Below are positions 57,001 through 63,000 of a DNA stretch of 64,000 nt, piece after piece. The position numbers are program-made. Positions within the stretch are counted from its first letter, which is position 1, and every line of letters begins with the position of its first letter. The stretch is from an uncultured Dehalococcoidia bacterium (GTDB taxonomy: Bacteria; Chloroflexota; Dehalococcoidia; Lucifugimonadales; UBA3495): assembly GCA_950072105.1 (NCBI GenBank), contig CATMOE010000002.1:79778-143777 (forward strand), given 5' to 3'.

Positions 57001-60000
57001 AAAGTCCTCAGCCATAGTTCCTTGTCTTCGGCGATCTCGTCGGCCATCCGGCGGGCTTCTTCGAAGGACCTTCCCTCCCGCTGATATATAACTACCAATT
57101 CGGCCAGTTCCTCGGCGGGCTTTTCCTCTATCTCTTGGGCCTCGCGGGCTATCTCCGCTCTTTGAACGTCCTGCTCGGCCCGGGATCCTAGATACGCTCC
57201 GGTGGCCATCGAGATCGTTCCGGCGGCGGCGGCAAGCCCGGCAACCAGGACTGCGGTTTGACTGTCCAGAGCCACGGCCACCGAGGTTACCAAGGCCACG
57301 GTGCTGAGAATTCCGTCTTGGGCGCCGAAGACAACCTCTCGGATCCGGCCCAACGAGGCGACCCGCCATCTCTCCCGGTCCAGCTCGATGGTGGCGTTGA
57401 CGAAGGTATCCAGGTCATTCGCGGCTACTGGAGCGAACTCGGCCCGTTCCCGGCCTAGGGTGTCTTCTACGGCTTCTGCCGTTGTTTCTGTCGCCGGCGA
57501 CGGTGGGGCAACGGCGACGGTTCGTCTGGCTTCCAACTGGTCCAGGGCCTGGGTAAATACCTCCAGGTGATGCCGCTCCCGCTCCATGGCCAAGGAGAAG
57601 GAATCCGCGGCGTCCTTGCGGCCTTCGTCCTGAGCGTCCCGGATCATCCGGGGATACATGGTGCTGAACTCTTTGGACTCGCCTTCAGTGACCGTGCGCA
57701 GGTTCTCCAGAGTGCTCTTGATGTCTCCGGAAACCCGGAGGTGGTTGAGGCCGTGAATGGTCTCGGCTCCGGCGACTTCCTGGAAGACTTGGGCGATCTC
57801 AGGAAGCCCTTCTTCCAGCGCGCGGTGGGCATAAGCGTTGTACTTCAGGTAGGCCAAGGCCTCATCGACGATGGCGCTTCACAGATTCTTTTCCGTCTTG
57901 GTCATGTTGGGGGTTTCTGAGGCCATGCTAAGGTTCCTTTCGCTAATGGGTTGCGGGGATGGTTATTTGGTGGAATCGCGGGGGGTTACATGCCTGAAGA
58001 GGCGTGGTGGGCGGAAAGTTTCCAACCCTGAGGGGTCCGGACGAAGATGTTGGTAGCCAGCACGCCGAAGTTGCTGGCCCGGCCCTGCAAGACGCTGGAG
58101 ATGTGCTCCACGCAGGTCACCCAGGCCGCGTCGCCGTGCACCGCCACATTCACGTAGCGAATGTTGAAGTGCATCAGCATGGTGTTGTCGAAGATGCCCG
58201 CCCAACTGGCTCGTATGTTATCCCAGCCGATCAATGGCTCCCAGCCGGGATGCACGCATAGGGAATCGCCGGACGTATCACAGATCTCTTCCATCTGCCC
58301 GATGTCCAGAGCGCCGAAGGCGTCGTAGAACCGTTGGTTGGCTGCTTTGACCGCTTCAACTTCCGCCGATTGGGATTCCATCGCACTCCGTTCGCATGTG
58401 GTATCGGAAAATTTAGAATCCCCTTCCCCCCGGAGTGGGGGCTGGGGGATTCTCTCAGTCCTTTAGCTAGACCCGCCTCCCACCATATCGCTGGTGAGAT
58501 GGGAGGTTAGTGCAATGGCGAGAACGACGCCGGCGCCAGAATCTTGTTCTGTTGGTTGACCAAGAACTCCCGGGTAGGCGGCGGCCAATGGGGCGACTTG
58601 CCAGCCTCGGCGCGGATTTTGTCGCGGTCTCCCAGGGACTTGTAAGGCCAAACGTGCATCCACTTGTTGAGGCCGCCCAGTTCGCTGGTCATGCCCAAGG
58701 CCAGGGGAGAGTGCTCTTCCCGATGGGGGATCGCGGCGGCCCAAAGCTCCAGCACTTTGCCCATGGTGCCGGTCTGGTAGGTATAGGTCCGCATCTCATA
58801 GATGCTGCCCAAGGCTTGGTCTTCGCCCAAGGGACGCATGAATGGAGCGGGATGCCAGATCTCCGACTCCTGGGACACGTACATGTCCGAGGGGTTGGAC
58901 GGGGGCCATTCGGGGTCCTTGGCGGCGTCGGCGCGAACGTCGTTACGCTCTTCCACGCTCTCATAAGGCCATACGTGAATCACTTGGTTCAGCGGACCGA
59001 TCTCGGTGTGCCAGAAGGCGCCCAGCTTGGAATACTTCTGCCTGGCGGGTAAGGCCTTGCCGAAATTTTCCTCGAATTTTGCAACCGATCCGGGTTTCAA
59101 AGTGTAGGTCCTGACTTCGTAAATCATGGCGACTCCTCTTGCGGTTATCTAGTTCCTTCCCCTGGCAAAATGTTGCCGGTCCGCCGAAGGGTCGGATTTA
59201 CCGGCCTAGTGTAGCAAAAACGCTATTGGCGGGCAAACGGGGTTGAATACGTGCCGCATCCCCCGGTATATGGCCGTGCTAAGCGAGACTCTTGATGCAC
59301 CGAATCGTATACTGGTAAAGAGCTTCCGATTACCCTACCGGAGAAGGCCCGAATCATGACACAAGGCGGGGTTCCAACAACCAAAGCCGGGACCGGACGG
59401 ACCATAGGCAAAGCCGCGCTGGAACGGCTGTTGGTTGAAAGCGCTCCCGAGACGGGAGAACCGGCGTCGACGCTGTATCTGAGGCCCGGCGAGGGTCAGG
59501 AGTTCTTGGAATCCCTAGGCGCAACCGGGCAAGACTGGCGGGAGCGATTAACCAAGCTGAACGATTCGATCTTGGATTCCGGAACCGGGCTGGCCGTCCT
59601 GCGCTCCGGGGACCAGTGCCTGGTGGTAGCCCCGCCATTCCCTCTGCCGGAGAGCCTCTTTTTTTCTAGCTGGGACTTCTCCACATTGTTGCTGCTTTTG
59701 AAGTCTGAATTTACCCTGGGCGTGGTGTTGTTGCGCTTGGGACGTTCATCGGTGGCGGTGTATCGGGGGGAAAAGCTAATATCCTCCAAAACCGATGCCC
59801 GGTACGTGAAAGGAAGGCACCACGCCGGGGGCACCTCCCAGCTAAGGTTCCAGCGCATCCGCGAAGGCCAGATGAAGCTGATGTACGAGAAGACTTGCGA
59901 AGCGGTCCATAGTCAGTTCACTTCGATCGCCGGCGACTTGGACTACATGTTCCTGGGCGGCGAGAGATTTACCCTCAACGGTTTCCTGAAGATCTGTACT

Positions 60001-63000
60001 TATATGGAGAGATTCCGTTCCATCACGTTGGGCCGGCGCCTGAACATCAGGGACCCAAAACGTGATACGCTGGACCAAGTTGGGAGGCTCTTGCACGAAA
60101 GCCGAATCTACCAGTTTCAGTGGTAAAAGCCACTTAAAATCACCTTAAATCGTCAGAACTATAGGATATATTCACGGAAGTATGGTATTAGACGACCTGA
60201 CACAGGACTCGGCTGATCAGTCCCACGTGCTGGGTGGATTCTCCCAGTCTGTAGAGCTTCTGGAGTTCAACCAGATTCGCCAACAAGTGGCTTCCTACGC
60301 TCGCACGCTTATGGGTCAGGACGCCGCCCGCAACCTGGCGCCGGACCGAGACCTCTTGGAGATTGCTACCCGCCAGCAAGAGACCACCGAATCGCGTCAA
60401 TTTCTTGAGCAGGGGGGCTCCCTGGAATTCGGACCCCAGGAAGACTTTCAAGAGTACGTCCAACGGGCGTTGTTGGGCGGATTACTGCGGGGTGGCGAGC
60501 TTTACCCCATCCATGATTTGGTGAGGGCAGCGGGGTACGACCGGGCGAACCTCTCCCGCCACGAAGAGCTCCCCCTGCTATCTTCCTATGCGGAGAATAT
60601 TCCCGACCACTCTTCCCTGCAACGGGCCATCGGCGCGGCGATCAGTCCGGCCGGGGAGGTCTTGGACGATGCGAGCCCCACGCTCAGGGATCTACGCCAC
60701 GAATCCCGGCGCATCCAACAAAACTTGAACGAGGTGATGGAACGCAGTTTGCGCCGTTTCCAGCGTCAGGAGTTGGTGCAAGAGCCCATCATCACCCAGC
60801 GCAACGGCCGGTTAGTGCTGTTGATCAAGGCGGAGATGCGGCCCCGGGTGGCCGGCATCGTCCACGACGTTTCCGACAGCGGAGCCACGGTCTTCATCGA
60901 ACCGATGGCCGCCGTGGAACAGGGCAATCGGTGGCGGGAGGCCAGGCTGGCCGAGGACCGGGAAGTGGAACGGGTCCTGCGGCAACTCTCCGGCATGGTC
61001 GGCCAAGCCGGAGAGGACCTTTTGTTGACACTGGATCTGCTGGGCAGGTTGGACCTGAGCATGGCCAAGGGGCGCTACTCCATATCGTTGAAGGCAACTC
61101 AGCCTTGGGTCACCGGCCAAGAGGGCCAAGATCGCAACCTGCGGCTAACGGGAGCGCGGCATCCCCTGCTTACGGGCGACGTAGTTCCGGTGAGTCTGGA
61201 CCTGGGCGCCGAGTTTACCGTTATGTTGATCACCGGTCCCAACGCCGGAGGCAAGACGGTTACCCTAAAAACGGTGGGGTTGTTGGCCTTGATGGCTCAC
61301 GCCGGACTTCACGTTCCCGCCGAAGAGGCTCACTTTCCTTTGCTGGATGGAGTCTACGCCGATATCGGCGATCAACAGAGCATCGAACAGGCCCTATCGA
61401 CATTCAGCTCCCATGTCCAGAACCTGTTGTCCATCATGGGCCAGGCCACGGGCAACTCCCTGGTGTTGGTGGACGAGTTGGGCACCAGCACTGACCCTGA
61501 GGAAGGTTCAGCCCTAGCCACCGCCATATTGAGTCACTTTCAGAGCCTGGGGCCATGGGTGGTCGCCACCACCCATCACCGAGGAGTGGCGAGGTACGTC
61601 CAAGAAACCCCGGGCATGATCAACGCCAGCGTTGACCTGGACCCGCAGACCCTGGGACCCACCTACCGACTGACCCTTGGCCTGCCGGGCCGCAGTTACG
61701 CCTTGACCATCGCTGCCCGGTTAGGGTTGCCGCCGGAAGTTATTGAACAGGCGCGGACGTCCATGTCTCCGGTGGAGCGAGACACCGAGAGCCTGCTGGG
61801 GGAACTGCAGGAAGAACGTCGAGTAGTGGAGCAACTGCGCCAAGATGCGGAAGCCGCCATGGCCCAGTCACGCCAAAACCTGGCCGAGACGGAATCAAGC
61901 TTAGCGGCTGTTGAAGCTACCAAGGCAGAGATGCTAGAGGAGTCACGGCAGGAATTGCAAGAGCGGATCGCGGACCTGTTGCAGCGGCTTCAACGAGCTG
62001 AACGGGCCTTGGACCAACCCGAAGCACGCTCGGCGCTACAAGAGCAACGGTCCCAGTTACAAGAAGCGGCACGGGAGGTCCGGTCTGTTCACTGGCAACC
62101 GATCGAGGTAAAACGGACTCCCTGGCAGGAGAAGCTTGGCAGCGGTGACAGGGTATTTATACGGGGAATTCCACGCCCGGTGGAGGTGATCTCCTCGCCT
62201 GACGACGAGGGGCAGGTAGAGGTTTTGTTGGGGACCATGCGGGCCAAGATTCCGTCATATCAGTTGGAGCGTCCGGCAGCAGGCCACGAACCCGCCGCGC
62301 GCCAGGGCGTTTACTTCAACCGCCCCTCAATACGCCAGCTCAATACCGAGGTTGACCTGCGCGGCCTGCGGGTGGATGAGGCCCTATCCAAGGTGGATGA
62401 CTTGCTGAACAATGCTGCTCTGGGGGGCGTGGAAGCGGTACGAATCATTCACGGCAAGGGGACCGGCGTGCTTCGCCGGTCCATTCGGGAATACCTGACC
62501 AGGCATTCCTTGGCCGGAAGCATAGCTCCGGGAGACGGAAGCGGCGGCGACGGAGTGACGGTGGTGGAATTGAAATAGGCCAGTCGCCAGCCCGGCGGCG
62601 CAGGCGATGGGACGAACGCCTTAGCCGCCGTCAGGAACGGTGGTATCCGCTTCCCACTGGAAGTTGCCCCGGTCGTCGAATTTCTGTACGCGACGGCCTT
62701 CTATGTCTCCTATGTAAATGAATCCTGAGTCGTCGATCACGATTGTGCTGGGCGCCTGGAATTCTCCTGTCGCGTCACCCTGTATGCCCCACTCTCTGGA
62801 GAATTCACCCCTGGATCCGAATCGTTGGACCCGCCGATTTCCTTTGTCTAGAACGTAGATCCAATTGCCGCCCGGTTCGATGGCGATGTCGCCCGGCGTT
62901 TCGAACTGTCCTTCTGCGCTGCCTTTCGACCCCCAGGACAACAGGAACCGGAGACGAGAGTCGAACTTTTGGATCCGGTGATTACCCTGGTCGACAACGT

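What a model noticed while it worked through the whole genome (the two positions that open the first line are those of the whole stretch)
59356..62578. Vms1-like release factor (acVLRF1) in an operon with the collision sensor MutS2, in a genome without RqcH
A 256-aa acVLRF1/Vms1-type peptidyl-tRNA hydrolase gene (g00329) sits 56 nt upstream of, and on the same strand as, the MutS2 (MutS_V+Smr) gene g00330, and no RqcH/NFACT gene is found in this genome or 11 relatives. I read the pair as a two-step, RqcH-independent bacterial ribosome quality-control module: MutS2 splits collided ribosomes and the Vms1-like factor frees the nascent chain from the 50S-peptidyl-tRNA, as Vms1/ANKZF1 does in eukaryotes. 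New would be a bacterial RQC release step done by an archaeo-eukaryotic-type release factor instead of RqcH tailing and Pth.
Evidence so far: pfam.tsv: g00329 = baeRF_family10+acVLRF1+eRF1_2; g00330 = MutS_V+Smr. neighbours.tsv: acVLRF1 next to Smr in 441 genomes of 3682 that bear both (floor), 176 of 773 genomes of the order. NFACT_N (RqcH) PF05833: 0 of 12 genomes (G000 + 11 relatives, three of them single-contig and 97-99% complete) while the control rings in 11 of 14 named genomes. Structure: AlphaFold2 model from 16 sequences, mean pLDDT 86, pTM 0.80; Foldseek against the PDB: aRF1 4af1 E 3.6e-9, eRF1 chains E 1e-8 to 1e-6, yeast Vms1 on the 60S subunit 6r84_R E 4e-4 with the highest query TM-score of the list (0.47). 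G158 G159 S161 Q162 (GGxSQ) and R164 F165 R167 R169 E170 are invariant in the 16 aligned sequences of 53-91% [...]
(Added by a program. Inside this text positions count along the whole contig: contig position 79,778 is position 1 of the stretch shown here. "Call 12" and the like, gene names such as g00115 and contig names such as C1 are that model's own, and its searches are not shown. The text may have been shortened before it was handed on; [...] marks where a part breaks off. The agent that wrote the report below was given it as the finding of a first reader that could run no searches.)

Follow-up and report, generated by a model that had tools for sequence, protein, structure and literature searches.

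The report
Vms1-like release factor paired with MutS2
A marine Chloroflexota bacterium keeps a small relative of the eukaryotic nascent-chain release factor Vms1 fused into one gene pair with the ribosome-splitting ATPase MutS2, which makes it a testable candidate for the missing "release" step of bacterial ribosome quality control in lineages that lack the usual tailing factor RqcH.

Summary
Both genes are real. A 256-aa acVLRF1-family protein (59356-60126, +) lies 55 nt upstream of a full MutS2 (60182-62578, +), with no terminator-like site between them.

- MutS2 follows acVLRF1 in 78 of 80 related Dehalococcoidia genomes. Other window neighbours are kept in at most 43 of 80.
- A sister lineage has the reverse order (MutS2 then acVLRF1): 8 of 11 sampled genomes and 53 of 59 testable metagenome contigs.

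RqcH (NFACT_N) was not found in the own genome, in 35 further genomes of the class, or in 23 chromosome-level relatives. It was found in 148 of 265 other Chloroflexota. ArfB and small S4 partners were not found either.

The AlphaFold model (pLDDT 93.9) superposes as a rigid two-lobed body only on 60S-bound Vms1.

Against the reading:
- There is no biochemistry.
- The "catalytic" Gln is replaced in most members of the sister lineage.
- At least 45 sampled genomes have MutS2 with neither RqcH nor acVLRF1.
- Pth and SmpB are present.

No searched paper links the two genes. Verdict: a probable two-gene, RqcH-independent rescue module, a new variant of a known pathway.

The parts
59128..59355 (+). 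Upstream intergenic region between the divergent NIPSNAP gene (- strand) and acVLRF1. It is the presumed promoter and leader of the pair.
   Evidence: ORF map. No sigma-70-like site was found by the simple scan and there is no Rfam match. A GGAG lies about 14 nt before the ATG.
59356..60126 (+). acVLRF1-family (Vms1-like release factor 1) gene, 256 aa. It has an N-terminal lobe (about residues 13-105) and an RNase-H-fold eRF1-M-like catalytic domain (about residues 118-254).
   Evidence: Pfam PF18859 at 79.9 bits. AF2 model with pLDDT 93.9. VIA-align: aRF1 M domain Z 14.6, and Vms1-60S Z 10.3 with rmsd 4.7 A over 178 residues spanning 13-254.
59827..59865 (+). Loop and helix start: G158 G159 T160 S161 Q162 (GGxSQ), then R164 F165 x R167 x R169 E170. 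This is the predicted peptidyl-transferase-centre loop and its rRNA-binding arginines.
   Evidence: Coordinates. G158, G159, S161, R164, R167 and R169 are invariant in 46 diverse sequences. Q162 is kept in 74 of 78 genes of the window's clade. The motif is as described for the family in PMC6514570.
60127..60181 (+). 55-nt A+T-rich spacer with no terminator-like hairpin. GGAAG lies just before the MutS2 ATG.
   Evidence: One contig of an RNA library (run X16, 59693-60480) bridges it.
60182..62578 (+). MutS2 gene, 798 aa: core/lever/clamp, ABC ATPase, coiled coil, KOW/MSSS and Smr.
   Evidence: TIGR01069 at 771 bits. MutS_V 348-529, MSSS 655-691 and Smr 724-798.
61235..61258 (+). Walker A motif GPNAGGKT of the MutS2 ATPase. 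The Walker B stretch VLVDELG lies at 61463-61483.
   Evidence: Both motifs are invariant in 31 aligned MutS2 sequences.
62351..62575 (+). Smr domain with DLRG (62354-62365) and HGKGTG (62450-62467). This is the B. subtilis-type DLR/HGxG form.
   Evidence: In B. subtilis this form senses collisions and does not cleave mRNA, according to PMC10897456 (passages read).

Best explanation
The two genes form a co-expressed, two-step ribosome-rescue module that works without RqcH.

Step 1 is inferred from homology. MutS2 recognises collided ribosomes through its KOW and Smr (DLR/HGxG) domains and uses its ABC ATPase to split the stalled lead ribosome. This leaves a 50S subunit carrying peptidyl-tRNA.

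Step 2 is inferred from fold, motif and gene linkage. The small acVLRF1 protein has no stop-codon-reading domain and no GTPase-binding domain. It docks on the now exposed A-site face of the 50S subunit as Vms1 does on the 60S subunit. It inserts its GG-x-S-Q loop into the peptidyl-transferase centre and detaches the nascent chain from the tRNA, with no alanine tail added first.

Whether the bond broken is the ester (release-factor-like) or the tRNA 3' end (Vms1-like) cannot be told from sequence.

Shown here: gene identity, conserved linkage in two gene orders, lack of RqcH in the class, and the Vms1-like two-lobed fold. Inferred: every biochemical step.
For: 1. Identity.

2. Linkage.
- MutS2 lies directly downstream on the same strand in 78 of 80 species-level Dehalococcoidia loci. 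acVLRF1 identity there runs from 45 to 92%. The distance to the conserved start of MutS2 is 5-285 nt, median 104. One of the two misses is a contig end.
- A sister clade has MutS2 upstream instead. This holds in 8 of 11 sampled genomes that have both genes. It also holds in 53 of 59 metagenome contigs with at least 1200 nt upstream, out of 80 fetched.
- Each gene order forms one clade in a quick tree, with support 99 and 94.

3. Control. The window's other neighbours are kept in only 43, 39, 38 and 4 of the same 80 loci.

4. NFACT_N (RqcH).
- 0 in the own genome.
- 0 of 36 class-level genomes, against 148 of 265 genomes of other Chloroflexota classes.
- 0 of 23 chromosome-level relatives.
- 0 of 15 acVLRF1 carriers in the sample have it.

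5. Other release routes are sparse.
- The own genome has only two RF-1-domain genes, with 364-aa frames, so no ArfB-sized one.
- 20 of 23 relatives also have just two.
- No Hsp15/RqcP/YlmH-like S4 protein was found.

6. Within the class, 12 of 13 acVLRF1 carriers have MutS2.

7. Fold.
- Vms1 on the 60S subunit is the only rigid whole-body match: Z 10.3, rmsd 4.7 A, 178 residues.
- eRF1 and Balon align both lobes only at rmsd 11-17 A.

8. GG, S and the three arginines are invariant in 46 diverse sequences.

9. Contigs of 4 RNA libraries from 4 studies cover both genes, and one contig bridges the spacer.

10. Literature. [quoted passage not shown]
Against: - No experiment exists on any acVLRF1 protein. 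Six searches found no paper beyond the 2019 family description.
- The residue at the Gln position is Ala, Ser or Glu in 4 of 78 genes of the window's clade and in 6 of 8 MutS2-linked genes of the sister clade. It is replaced in 65 of 80 sister-type metagenome genes; 55 of those 80 read GGSS[A/S]H.
- MutS2 occurs with neither RqcH nor acVLRF1 in 10 class-level genomes. The same is true of all 20 and all 15 sampled genomes of two other Chloroflexota families. MutS2 therefore does not need this partner.
- acVLRF1 occurs without MutS2 in G290, G075 and G206. By a published survey it must also do so in Actinobacteria, where 0 of 3213 genomes have mutS2 (PMC11633108, table).
- Pth and SmpB are present.
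- Absences rest on MAGs. The own genome is 92% complete with 6% contamination.
- An RNA-library contig across two genes does not prove one transcript, and DNA carry-over is not excluded.
Confidence: 0.55

Rival explanations
1. The same pair acts together on the intact 70S ribosome, like eRF1 or Pelota with the ABC ATPase ABCE1. acVLRF1 enters the A site of the stalled lead ribosome. There it either releases the chain first or serves as the wedge that MutS2's ATPase pushes on. No 50S-peptidyl-tRNA is ever formed, and RqcH is unnecessary for that reason.
For: The M domain is closest to aRF1/eRF1 (Z 14.6, rmsd 2.9 A; phmmer 4e-6 to aRF1). MutS2 carries an ABC-type ATPase. Tight two-gene linkage fits proteins that meet on one particle. 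The parallel between Smr/ABC ATPases and the eRF1 family is drawn in PMC10897456.
Against: The protein lacks the decoding-centre domain and the C domain that position eRF1, Pelota and Balon on whole ribosomes: it has 256 aa in two lobes. A stall inside an ORF leaves an A-site codon in place. The rigid-body match is to 60S-bound Vms1, not to ribosome-bound eRF1. A contact between the two proteins could not be tested.
Confidence: 0.15
2. acVLRF1 is not catalytic. It is a plug or placeholder, either Balon-like or an anti-association factor. It occupies the A-site/PTC face of 50S or 70S particles after MutS2 action, and Pth or another enzyme does the release.
For: The Gln is lost in most of the sister lineage. 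Balon chains are good structural matches (E 1e-7, Z about 11). PMC6514570 proposes non-catalytic roles for many bacterial aeRF1 relatives. Pth is present.
Against: Balon is defined by three domains, the absence of GGQ, and stress or RaiA neighbours, and proteins under 300 aa were excluded from that family (PMC10901736). Here GG, S and the arginines are invariant, the Gln is kept in 74 of 78 close relatives, there is no C domain, and the neighbour is MutS2. From recalled knowledge, Gln-to-Ala variants of bacterial release factors keep much of their activity, so loss of Gln need not mean loss of catalysis.
Confidence: 0.1
3. The adjacency has nothing to do with translation. MutS2 acts on DNA (recombination control, Smr nuclease), and acVLRF1 is a neighbour by inherited gene order.
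For: Older work describes MutS2 as an anti-recombination nuclease (titles and abstracts). Both gene orders are each monophyletic, so few independent events are needed.
Against: The pair survives where the flanks do not: 78 of 80 against at most 43 of 80. It is kept in both gene orders, at down to 26-34% identity. The Smr domain is the DLR/HGxG collision-sensor type. The partner belongs to a ribosomal release-factor superfamily.
Confidence: 0.05

Closest known systems
Eukaryotic RQC release step: Vms1/ANKZF1 acting on 60S-peptidyl-tRNA after RQT splitting
   Same: Same VLRF-1 clade (PMC6514570). Same two-lobed fold in the same relative orientation as 60S-bound Vms1. A Gly-x-small-Gln type loop. 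Genetically tied to a collision-triggered splitting ATPase.
   Different: No Rei1 zinc finger, ankyrin repeats, treble clef or VIM; the whole protein is 256 aa. The partner is MutS2, not RQT. No Rqc2/RqcH or Ltn1 counterpart is present. The chemistry is untested.
B. subtilis RQC: MutS2 (RqcU), RqcH, RqcP/YlmH, Pth
   Same: A full-length MutS2 with Walker A/B, KOW and a DLR/HGxG Smr domain. Pth is present.
   Different: RqcH was not found. No RqcP/YlmH/Hsp15-like S4 protein was found. An archaeo-eukaryotic-type release-factor homologue sits in the operon instead.
acVLRF-1 family as defined by Burroughs and Aravind 2019 (Pfam PF18859, NCBIfam NF041024)
   Same: It is a member: it has the GGxSQ loop, lacks the stop-codon domain and has the short N-terminal extension. 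NCBI already names relatives 'acVLRF1 family' or 'Vms1/Ankzf1 family peptidyl-tRNA hydrolase'.
   Different: That paper calls prokaryotic VLRF-1 proteins stand-alone and independent of other RQC components. Its main text and the held supplement contain no 'MutS'. The MutS2 linkage adds to that description.
Balon (Rv2629, Msmeg1130) ribosome hibernation factors
   Same: Same aeRF1 superfamily, and a comparable structural score on the M domain.
   Different: Balon has three domains, binds EF-Tu, lacks GGQ and sits in stress operons. This protein has two lobes, keeps GG-x-S-Q and sits with MutS2.
Codon-independent bacterial-type release factors on stalled or split particles: ArfB, and human mitochondrial mtRF-R with MTRES1 (recalled, not from a call)
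   Same: The proposed job is the same: release of a nascent chain without a stop codon, for mtRF-R on a split large subunit.
   Different: An unrelated fold (bacterial RF-1 domain). No third RF-1-domain gene is present here, nor in 20 of 23 relatives.

Membership tests
acVLRF-1 (PF18859) | Profile match above the curated cut-off | tested here: met
   Pfam 79.9 bits against 27.1. The stricter NCBIfam model NF041024 gives 103.4 bits, below its cut-off of 125.
acVLRF-1 (PF18859) | GGxSQ loop followed by conserved arginines | tested here: met
   G158 G159 T160 S161 Q162, R164, R167, R169. The Gln is variable elsewhere in the family.
acVLRF-1 (PF18859) | No stop-codon-recognition domain and no C-terminal domain; short N-terminal extension | tested here: met
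   256 aa in two lobes; the model ends with the M domain. The N lobe does align loosely with eRF1 N domains, at rmsd 13-16 A, so 'lost' may mean 'reduced'.
MutS2 (TIGR01069) | Equivalog profile above cut-off, ABC ATPase motifs, KOW and C-terminal Smr | tested here: met
   771 bits against 400. Domains, motifs. The MSSS/KOW match is 24.6 bits, below its cut-off of 26.8.
Vms1/ANKZF1 (eukaryotic VLRF-1) | VLRF1 domain fold | tested here: met
   6r84_R Z 10.3, rmsd 4.7 A, 178 residues; 5whg Z 8.4.
Vms1/ANKZF1 (eukaryotic VLRF-1) | Accessory Rei1-type zinc finger, ankyrin repeats, VIM | tested here: not met
   Only the acVLRF1, eRF1_2 and baeRF10 profiles match, and the protein is 256 aa long.
Vms1/ANKZF1 (eukaryotic VLRF-1) | Releases nascent chains from large-subunit peptidyl-tRNA | not testable with these tools
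   Needs biochemistry.
Balon hibernation factors | Three aeRF1-like domains, with a C domain that binds EF-Tu | tested here: not met
   256 aa with no C domain. Definition taken from PMC10901736.
Balon hibernation factors | Absence of the GGQ-type motif | tested here: not met
   The GG-x-S-Q loop is present.
Canonical bacterial RQC (RqcH pathway) | NFACT_N protein RqcH | tested here: not met
   0 matches in the own genome, 0 of 36 class-level genomes and 0 of 23 relatives. The own genome is 92% complete.
Canonical bacterial RQC (RqcH pathway) | Small S4-domain partner (RqcP, YlmH) | tested here: not met
   The four S4 matches lie in frames of 210, 338, 427 and 269 aa. Two were read: the 338-aa frame looks RluD-like and the 269-aa frame TlyA-like, named by my reading of the printed sequences. 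The other two I take by length alone to be ribosomal protein S4 and tyrosyl-tRNA synthetase. None is RqcP-sized.

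The most novel reading that the evidence does not exclude
acVLRF1 proteins are the long-sought dedicated release factors of a tail-less bacterial RQC. They act after whichever collision-triggered splitting ATPase a lineage owns: MutS2 in Dehalococcoidia and, according to an earlier unchecked note of this scan (e1-3584886), the helicase HrpA in some Actinobacteria, which have no MutS2. A 'split, then Vms1-type release' pathway would then predate eukaryotes. In the sister lineage the GGSS[A/S]H loop may mark a switch from Gln-assisted ester hydrolysis to His-assisted cleavage of the tRNA 3' end, the chemistry reported for Vms1.
Probability: 0.35. Interest if true: 0.85.

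Novelty: new variant of a known kind. Interest (0 to 1): 0.7.

Why it matters
How the nascent chain leaves the split large subunit is the least understood step of bacterial ribosome quality control. Recent papers state that no dedicated factor is known and that Pth does the job after Ala-tailing. They also state that the fate of the 50S-peptidyl-tRNA made by HrpA is unclear (abstract).

A published survey shows many phyla with MutS2 but little RqcH: 35 against 26 of 41 Chloroflexota, and 1781 against 404 in the FCB group.

This gene pair offers a concrete, cheap-to-test candidate for a release step without tailing. It also ties the bacterial relatives of eukaryotic Vms1 to a collision sensor for the first time. 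That bears on how the eukaryotic RQC pathway was assembled.

Tried and rejected
- Complex prediction (MutS2 43-798 with acVLRF1 13-256) was not available, so nothing was folded. A direct contact is untested.
- No fused acVLRF1 forms of 449-2000 aa were found. The tool calls this weak evidence.
- The diverse alignment A1 had no stretch usable for a locus scan. The narrower A2 and A5 were used instead.
- No promoter-like site and no Rfam family were found around the pair.
- bVLRF1 (PF18826): no match in the own genome, but the control rang in 0 of 14, so the search is uninformative.
- tmRNA was not found by Rfam (only tRNA-sized sub-threshold matches) or by aragorn. SmpB is present, so this is probably an assembly gap.
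- No third conserved partner turned up next to acVLRF1 where MutS2 is not adjacent or in the 12 longest of the 80 sister-type (MutS2-first) contigs. No S4, Pth, CCA-adding or RtcB-type gene was seen there.
- Around MutS2 in 8 genomes without acVLRF1 or RqcH, no translation factor was found. One of the 8 loci was mis-called by my ORF picker.
- RNA-library contigs gave no cover over 59168-59301 in the 4 runs laid.
- Cerullo et al. 2022 (PMC9041291) is not held and was not read.
- I could not reach actinobacterial genomes, so the earlier HrpA note was not tested.

Full report
**1. What is there**

The window holds two same-strand ORFs, 59356-60126 (256 aa) and 60182-62578 (798 aa). They are separated by a 55-nt A+T-rich spacer. 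The spacer has no terminator-like hairpin and no Rfam match.

The first protein matches Pfam acVLRF1 at 79.9 bits (cut-off 27.1), with weaker eRF1_2 and baeRF_family10 matches. It scores 103 bits on NCBI's acVLRF1 model, below that model's strict cut-off of 125. NCBI already names close relatives 'acVLRF1 family' or 'Vms1/Ankzf1 family peptidyl-tRNA hydrolase'.

The second protein is an unambiguous MutS2: TIGR01069 at 771 bits against a cut-off of 400. It has MutS_V and Smr domains and a sub-threshold MSSS/KOW match. It carries Walker A GPNAGGKT, Walker B VLVDELG, and a Smr domain with DLRG and HGKGTG. In B. subtilis that DLR/HGxG form senses collisions without cutting mRNA, while the ATPase splits the ribosome (PMC10897456, passages read).

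By its best relatives the organism is a marine Dehalococcoidia (SAR202-like) MAG. The assembly is 4.08 Mb in 164 contigs, 92% complete with 6% contamination.

**2. Is the pairing more than chance?**

A scan of one genome per species found 248 relatives, and the best 80 were kept. All but one are titled Dehalococcoidia, Chloroflexota or SAR202; the remaining one is titled 'uncultured bacterium'.

- MutS2 lies directly downstream on the same strand in 78 of those 80 loci.
- One miss (L022) ends about 110 nt after the gene. The other (L010) is a real miss.
- acVLRF1 identity across these loci runs from 45 to 92%.
- The distance from its stop to the conserved start of MutS2 is 5-285 nt, median 104.

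As a control I looked for the window's other neighbours in the same 80 loci. NIPSNAP was present in 43, SnoaL in 39, rubrerythrin-VIT1 in 38 and the NHL protein in 4. The pair therefore outlives its surroundings.

I then sampled 301 Chloroflexota genomes of at least 90% completeness. The sample includes five genomes flagged unpublished (G026, G158, G161, G254, G263). None of them is in the class, and none of the five is among the genomes with a PF18859 match.

- True acVLRF1 genes (E at most 2e-19, frames of 208-301 aa) occur in 15 genomes. Thirteen of these are in the class and two are in another class.
- The other 27 matches are 380-500-aa proteins, which I take to be three-domain Balon-like relatives.
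- Among the 11 other class genomes that have both genes, 8 have them adjacent in the reverse order, MutS2 then acVLRF1.

A metagenome scan seeded with this sister type returned at least 578 relatives.

- Of the best 80, 53 have MutS2 upstream on the same strand.
- Of the 59 contigs with at least 1200 nt upstream, 53 do.

In a quick maximum-likelihood tree each gene order forms one clade, with support 99 and 94. The careful tree search did not finish.

Two gene orders, each kept over deep divergence, argue for selection on co-expression.

No third conserved partner was seen. No fused form was found, which is weak evidence.

**3. RqcH and the other rescue factors**

NFACT_N gave the following results.

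| Set searched | Genomes with NFACT_N |
|---|---|
| Own genome | 0 (control rang in 12 of 14) |
| Class-level genomes in the sample | 0 of 36 |
| Other Chloroflexota classes | 148 of 265 |
| Chromosome-level relatives of the window's clade | 0 of 23 |

None of the 15 acVLRF1 carriers has NFACT_N. By contrast 22 of the 27 genomes with the longer Balon-like proteins do. These genomes are kin, so this is a clade-level pattern and not 15 independent events.

The own genome has the following.

- RF1 and RF2 only, with no ArfB-sized RF-1 domain. The same holds in 20 of 23 relatives.
- Pth and SmpB.
- No small S4 protein of the Hsp15/RqcP/YlmH kind.
- No detectable tmRNA gene. With SmpB present I read this as an assembly gap.

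Within the class, 12 of 13 acVLRF1 carriers have MutS2. However, 10 genomes have MutS2 with neither acVLRF1 nor RqcH.

Two other Chloroflexota families also have MutS2 without RqcH, in 20 of 20 and 15 of 15 sampled genomes. Neither family has a true acVLRF1; two genomes of the second family carry only the longer aeRF1-like protein. So acVLRF1 is one lineage's solution, not a universal requirement.

**4. The protein itself**

An AlphaFold2 model from 46 diverse sequences is confident: pLDDT 93.9, pTM 0.88. It shows two lobes and a flexible loop at residues 149-159.

| Comparison | Score |
|---|---|
| C-terminal lobe against the aRF1/eRF1 M domain | Z 14.6, rmsd 2.9 A over 127 residues |
| Sequence match to aRF1 (phmmer) | 4e-6 |
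| Both lobes against eRF1 | rmsd 13-17 A |
| Both lobes against Balon | rmsd 11-12 A |
| Both lobes against 60S-bound yeast Vms1 | Z 10.3, rmsd 4.7 A over 178 residues spanning 13-254 |

The 60S-bound Vms1 chains (6r84, 6r86, 6r87) and the isolated Vms1 core (5whg, rmsd 4.9 A over 171 residues) are the only entries that match both lobes as a rigid body. They also have the highest Foldseek query TM-score, 0.45.

G158, G159, S161, R164, R167 and R169 are invariant in 46 diverse sequences. The Gln of GGxSQ is not.

- It is kept in 74 of 78 genes of the window's clade.
- It is kept in only 2 of 8 MutS2-linked genes of the sister clade.
- It is kept in 15 of 80 sister-type metagenome genes, of which 55 read GGSS[A/S]H.

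From recalled knowledge, the Gln side chain of bacterial release factors is not essential for catalysis, whereas Vms1 Q295L is inactive. The release chemistry therefore stays open.

**5. Expression**

Six metatranscriptome runs hold 39-76% of the sampled words. In the four runs laid, which come from four studies, contigs cover both genes. One 788-nt contig (59693-60480) bridges the spacer. This is compatible with co-transcription. It does not prove a single transcript and does not exclude DNA carry-over.

**6. Mechanism and rivals**

I hold one mechanism most likely, with confidence about 0.55. MutS2 splits the collided lead ribosome. acVLRF1 then docks on the freed A-site face of the 50S subunit and detaches the chain without prior Ala-tailing. 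All biochemical steps are inferred.

The rivals are as follows.

- Joint action on the 70S ribosome, in the manner of eRF1 or Pelota with ABCE1 (0.15).
- A non-catalytic plug, with Pth doing the release (0.1).
- Unrelated functions (0.05).

The Balon reading fails two defining features. Balon has three domains and lacks GGQ.

**7. Novelty**

The family and its predicted hydrolase role were described in 2019. That paper calls the prokaryotic members stand-alone and independent of RQC components. Its main text and its held supplement contain no 'MutS'; the supplement file may have been cut when stored.

Full-text searches turned up no paper that links a bacterial VLRF1 or aeRF1 protein to MutS2.

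- For 'acVLRF1', 'VLRF1'/'MutS2' and 'baeRF'/'Vms1', the only paper on bacterial VLRF proteins was the 2019 description.
- Vms1 with MutS2 and RqcH gave only a paper that cites Vms1 as the eukaryotic factor.
- 'VLRF-1'/'Vms1-like'/'bVLRF' and aeRF1 with MutS2 added nothing further.
- The MutS2 paper and the HrpA paper do not mention Vms1, VLRF or aeRF.
- Cerullo et al. 2022 could not be read.

An earlier unchecked note of this scan reports acVLRF1 next to the splitting helicase HrpA in soil Actinobacteria (e1-3584886). I could not test it. If it holds, the family follows whichever splitter a lineage owns.

I rate this a new variant of a known kind, with interest 0.7.

Noticed in passing
whole own genome (G000): SmpB is present, but no tmRNA gene was found by Rfam (only tRNA-sized sub-threshold matches) or by aragorn. 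This is probably an assembly gap in a 92%-complete MAG. A divergent or two-piece tmRNA is not excluded.
   Followed up: partly
L116, L124, L151, L171, L175, L180, L192 (metagenome contigs of the sister clade): A 232-234-aa gene lies convergent to acVLRF1 and starts within a few bases of its stop in 7 of the 12 longest contigs examined. It matched Pfam Sir2 in the 5 that were scanned (L116, L124, L151, L175, L180); L171 and L192 were not scanned.
   Followed up: no
L194:2167-2406(-), L197:5002-5241(+), L198:2213-2452(-): A conserved 80-aa protein with no Pfam family sits directly downstream of MutS2 in three genomes of a Chloroflexota family that has MutS2 but neither RqcH nor acVLRF1. The three copies are 53-86% identical. 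It is a possible alternative small partner of MutS2.
   Followed up: partly
phylum sample: Many Chloroflexota have MutS2 with no RqcH and no acVLRF1: 10 Dehalococcoidia genomes, and all 20 and all 15 sampled genomes of two further families. What releases the chain there is open.
   Followed up: partly
L096, L102 (G131, G179): Longer aeRF1-like proteins (384 and 465-aa frames) carry a GGWSQ loop. They occur in a family that lacks RqcH and are not adjacent to MutS2.
   Followed up: no
window 56691-57857 (-): A rubrerythrin domain is fused to a VIT1 iron-transporter domain in one 388-aa protein. It is kept upstream of the pair in 38 of 80 related loci, together with SnoaL-like and tandem NIPSNAP genes.
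   Followed up: no
window 62621-64000 (-): An NHL-repeat beta-propeller protein has a long Pro/Thr/Ala-rich N-terminal region that runs off the window end. It is kept in only 2-4 of 80 related loci.
   Followed up: no
window 60172: One RNA-library contig (run X14) starts at 60172, 10 nt before the MutS2 ATG, and is preceded by adapter-like letters. This could be a fragment end or an internal 5' end. It is a single record.
   Followed up: no
G226 (C12 and C48): This Dehalococcoidia genome has two acVLRF1 genes. The one I fetched (L086) follows MutS2; the second copy was not fetched.
   Followed up: no
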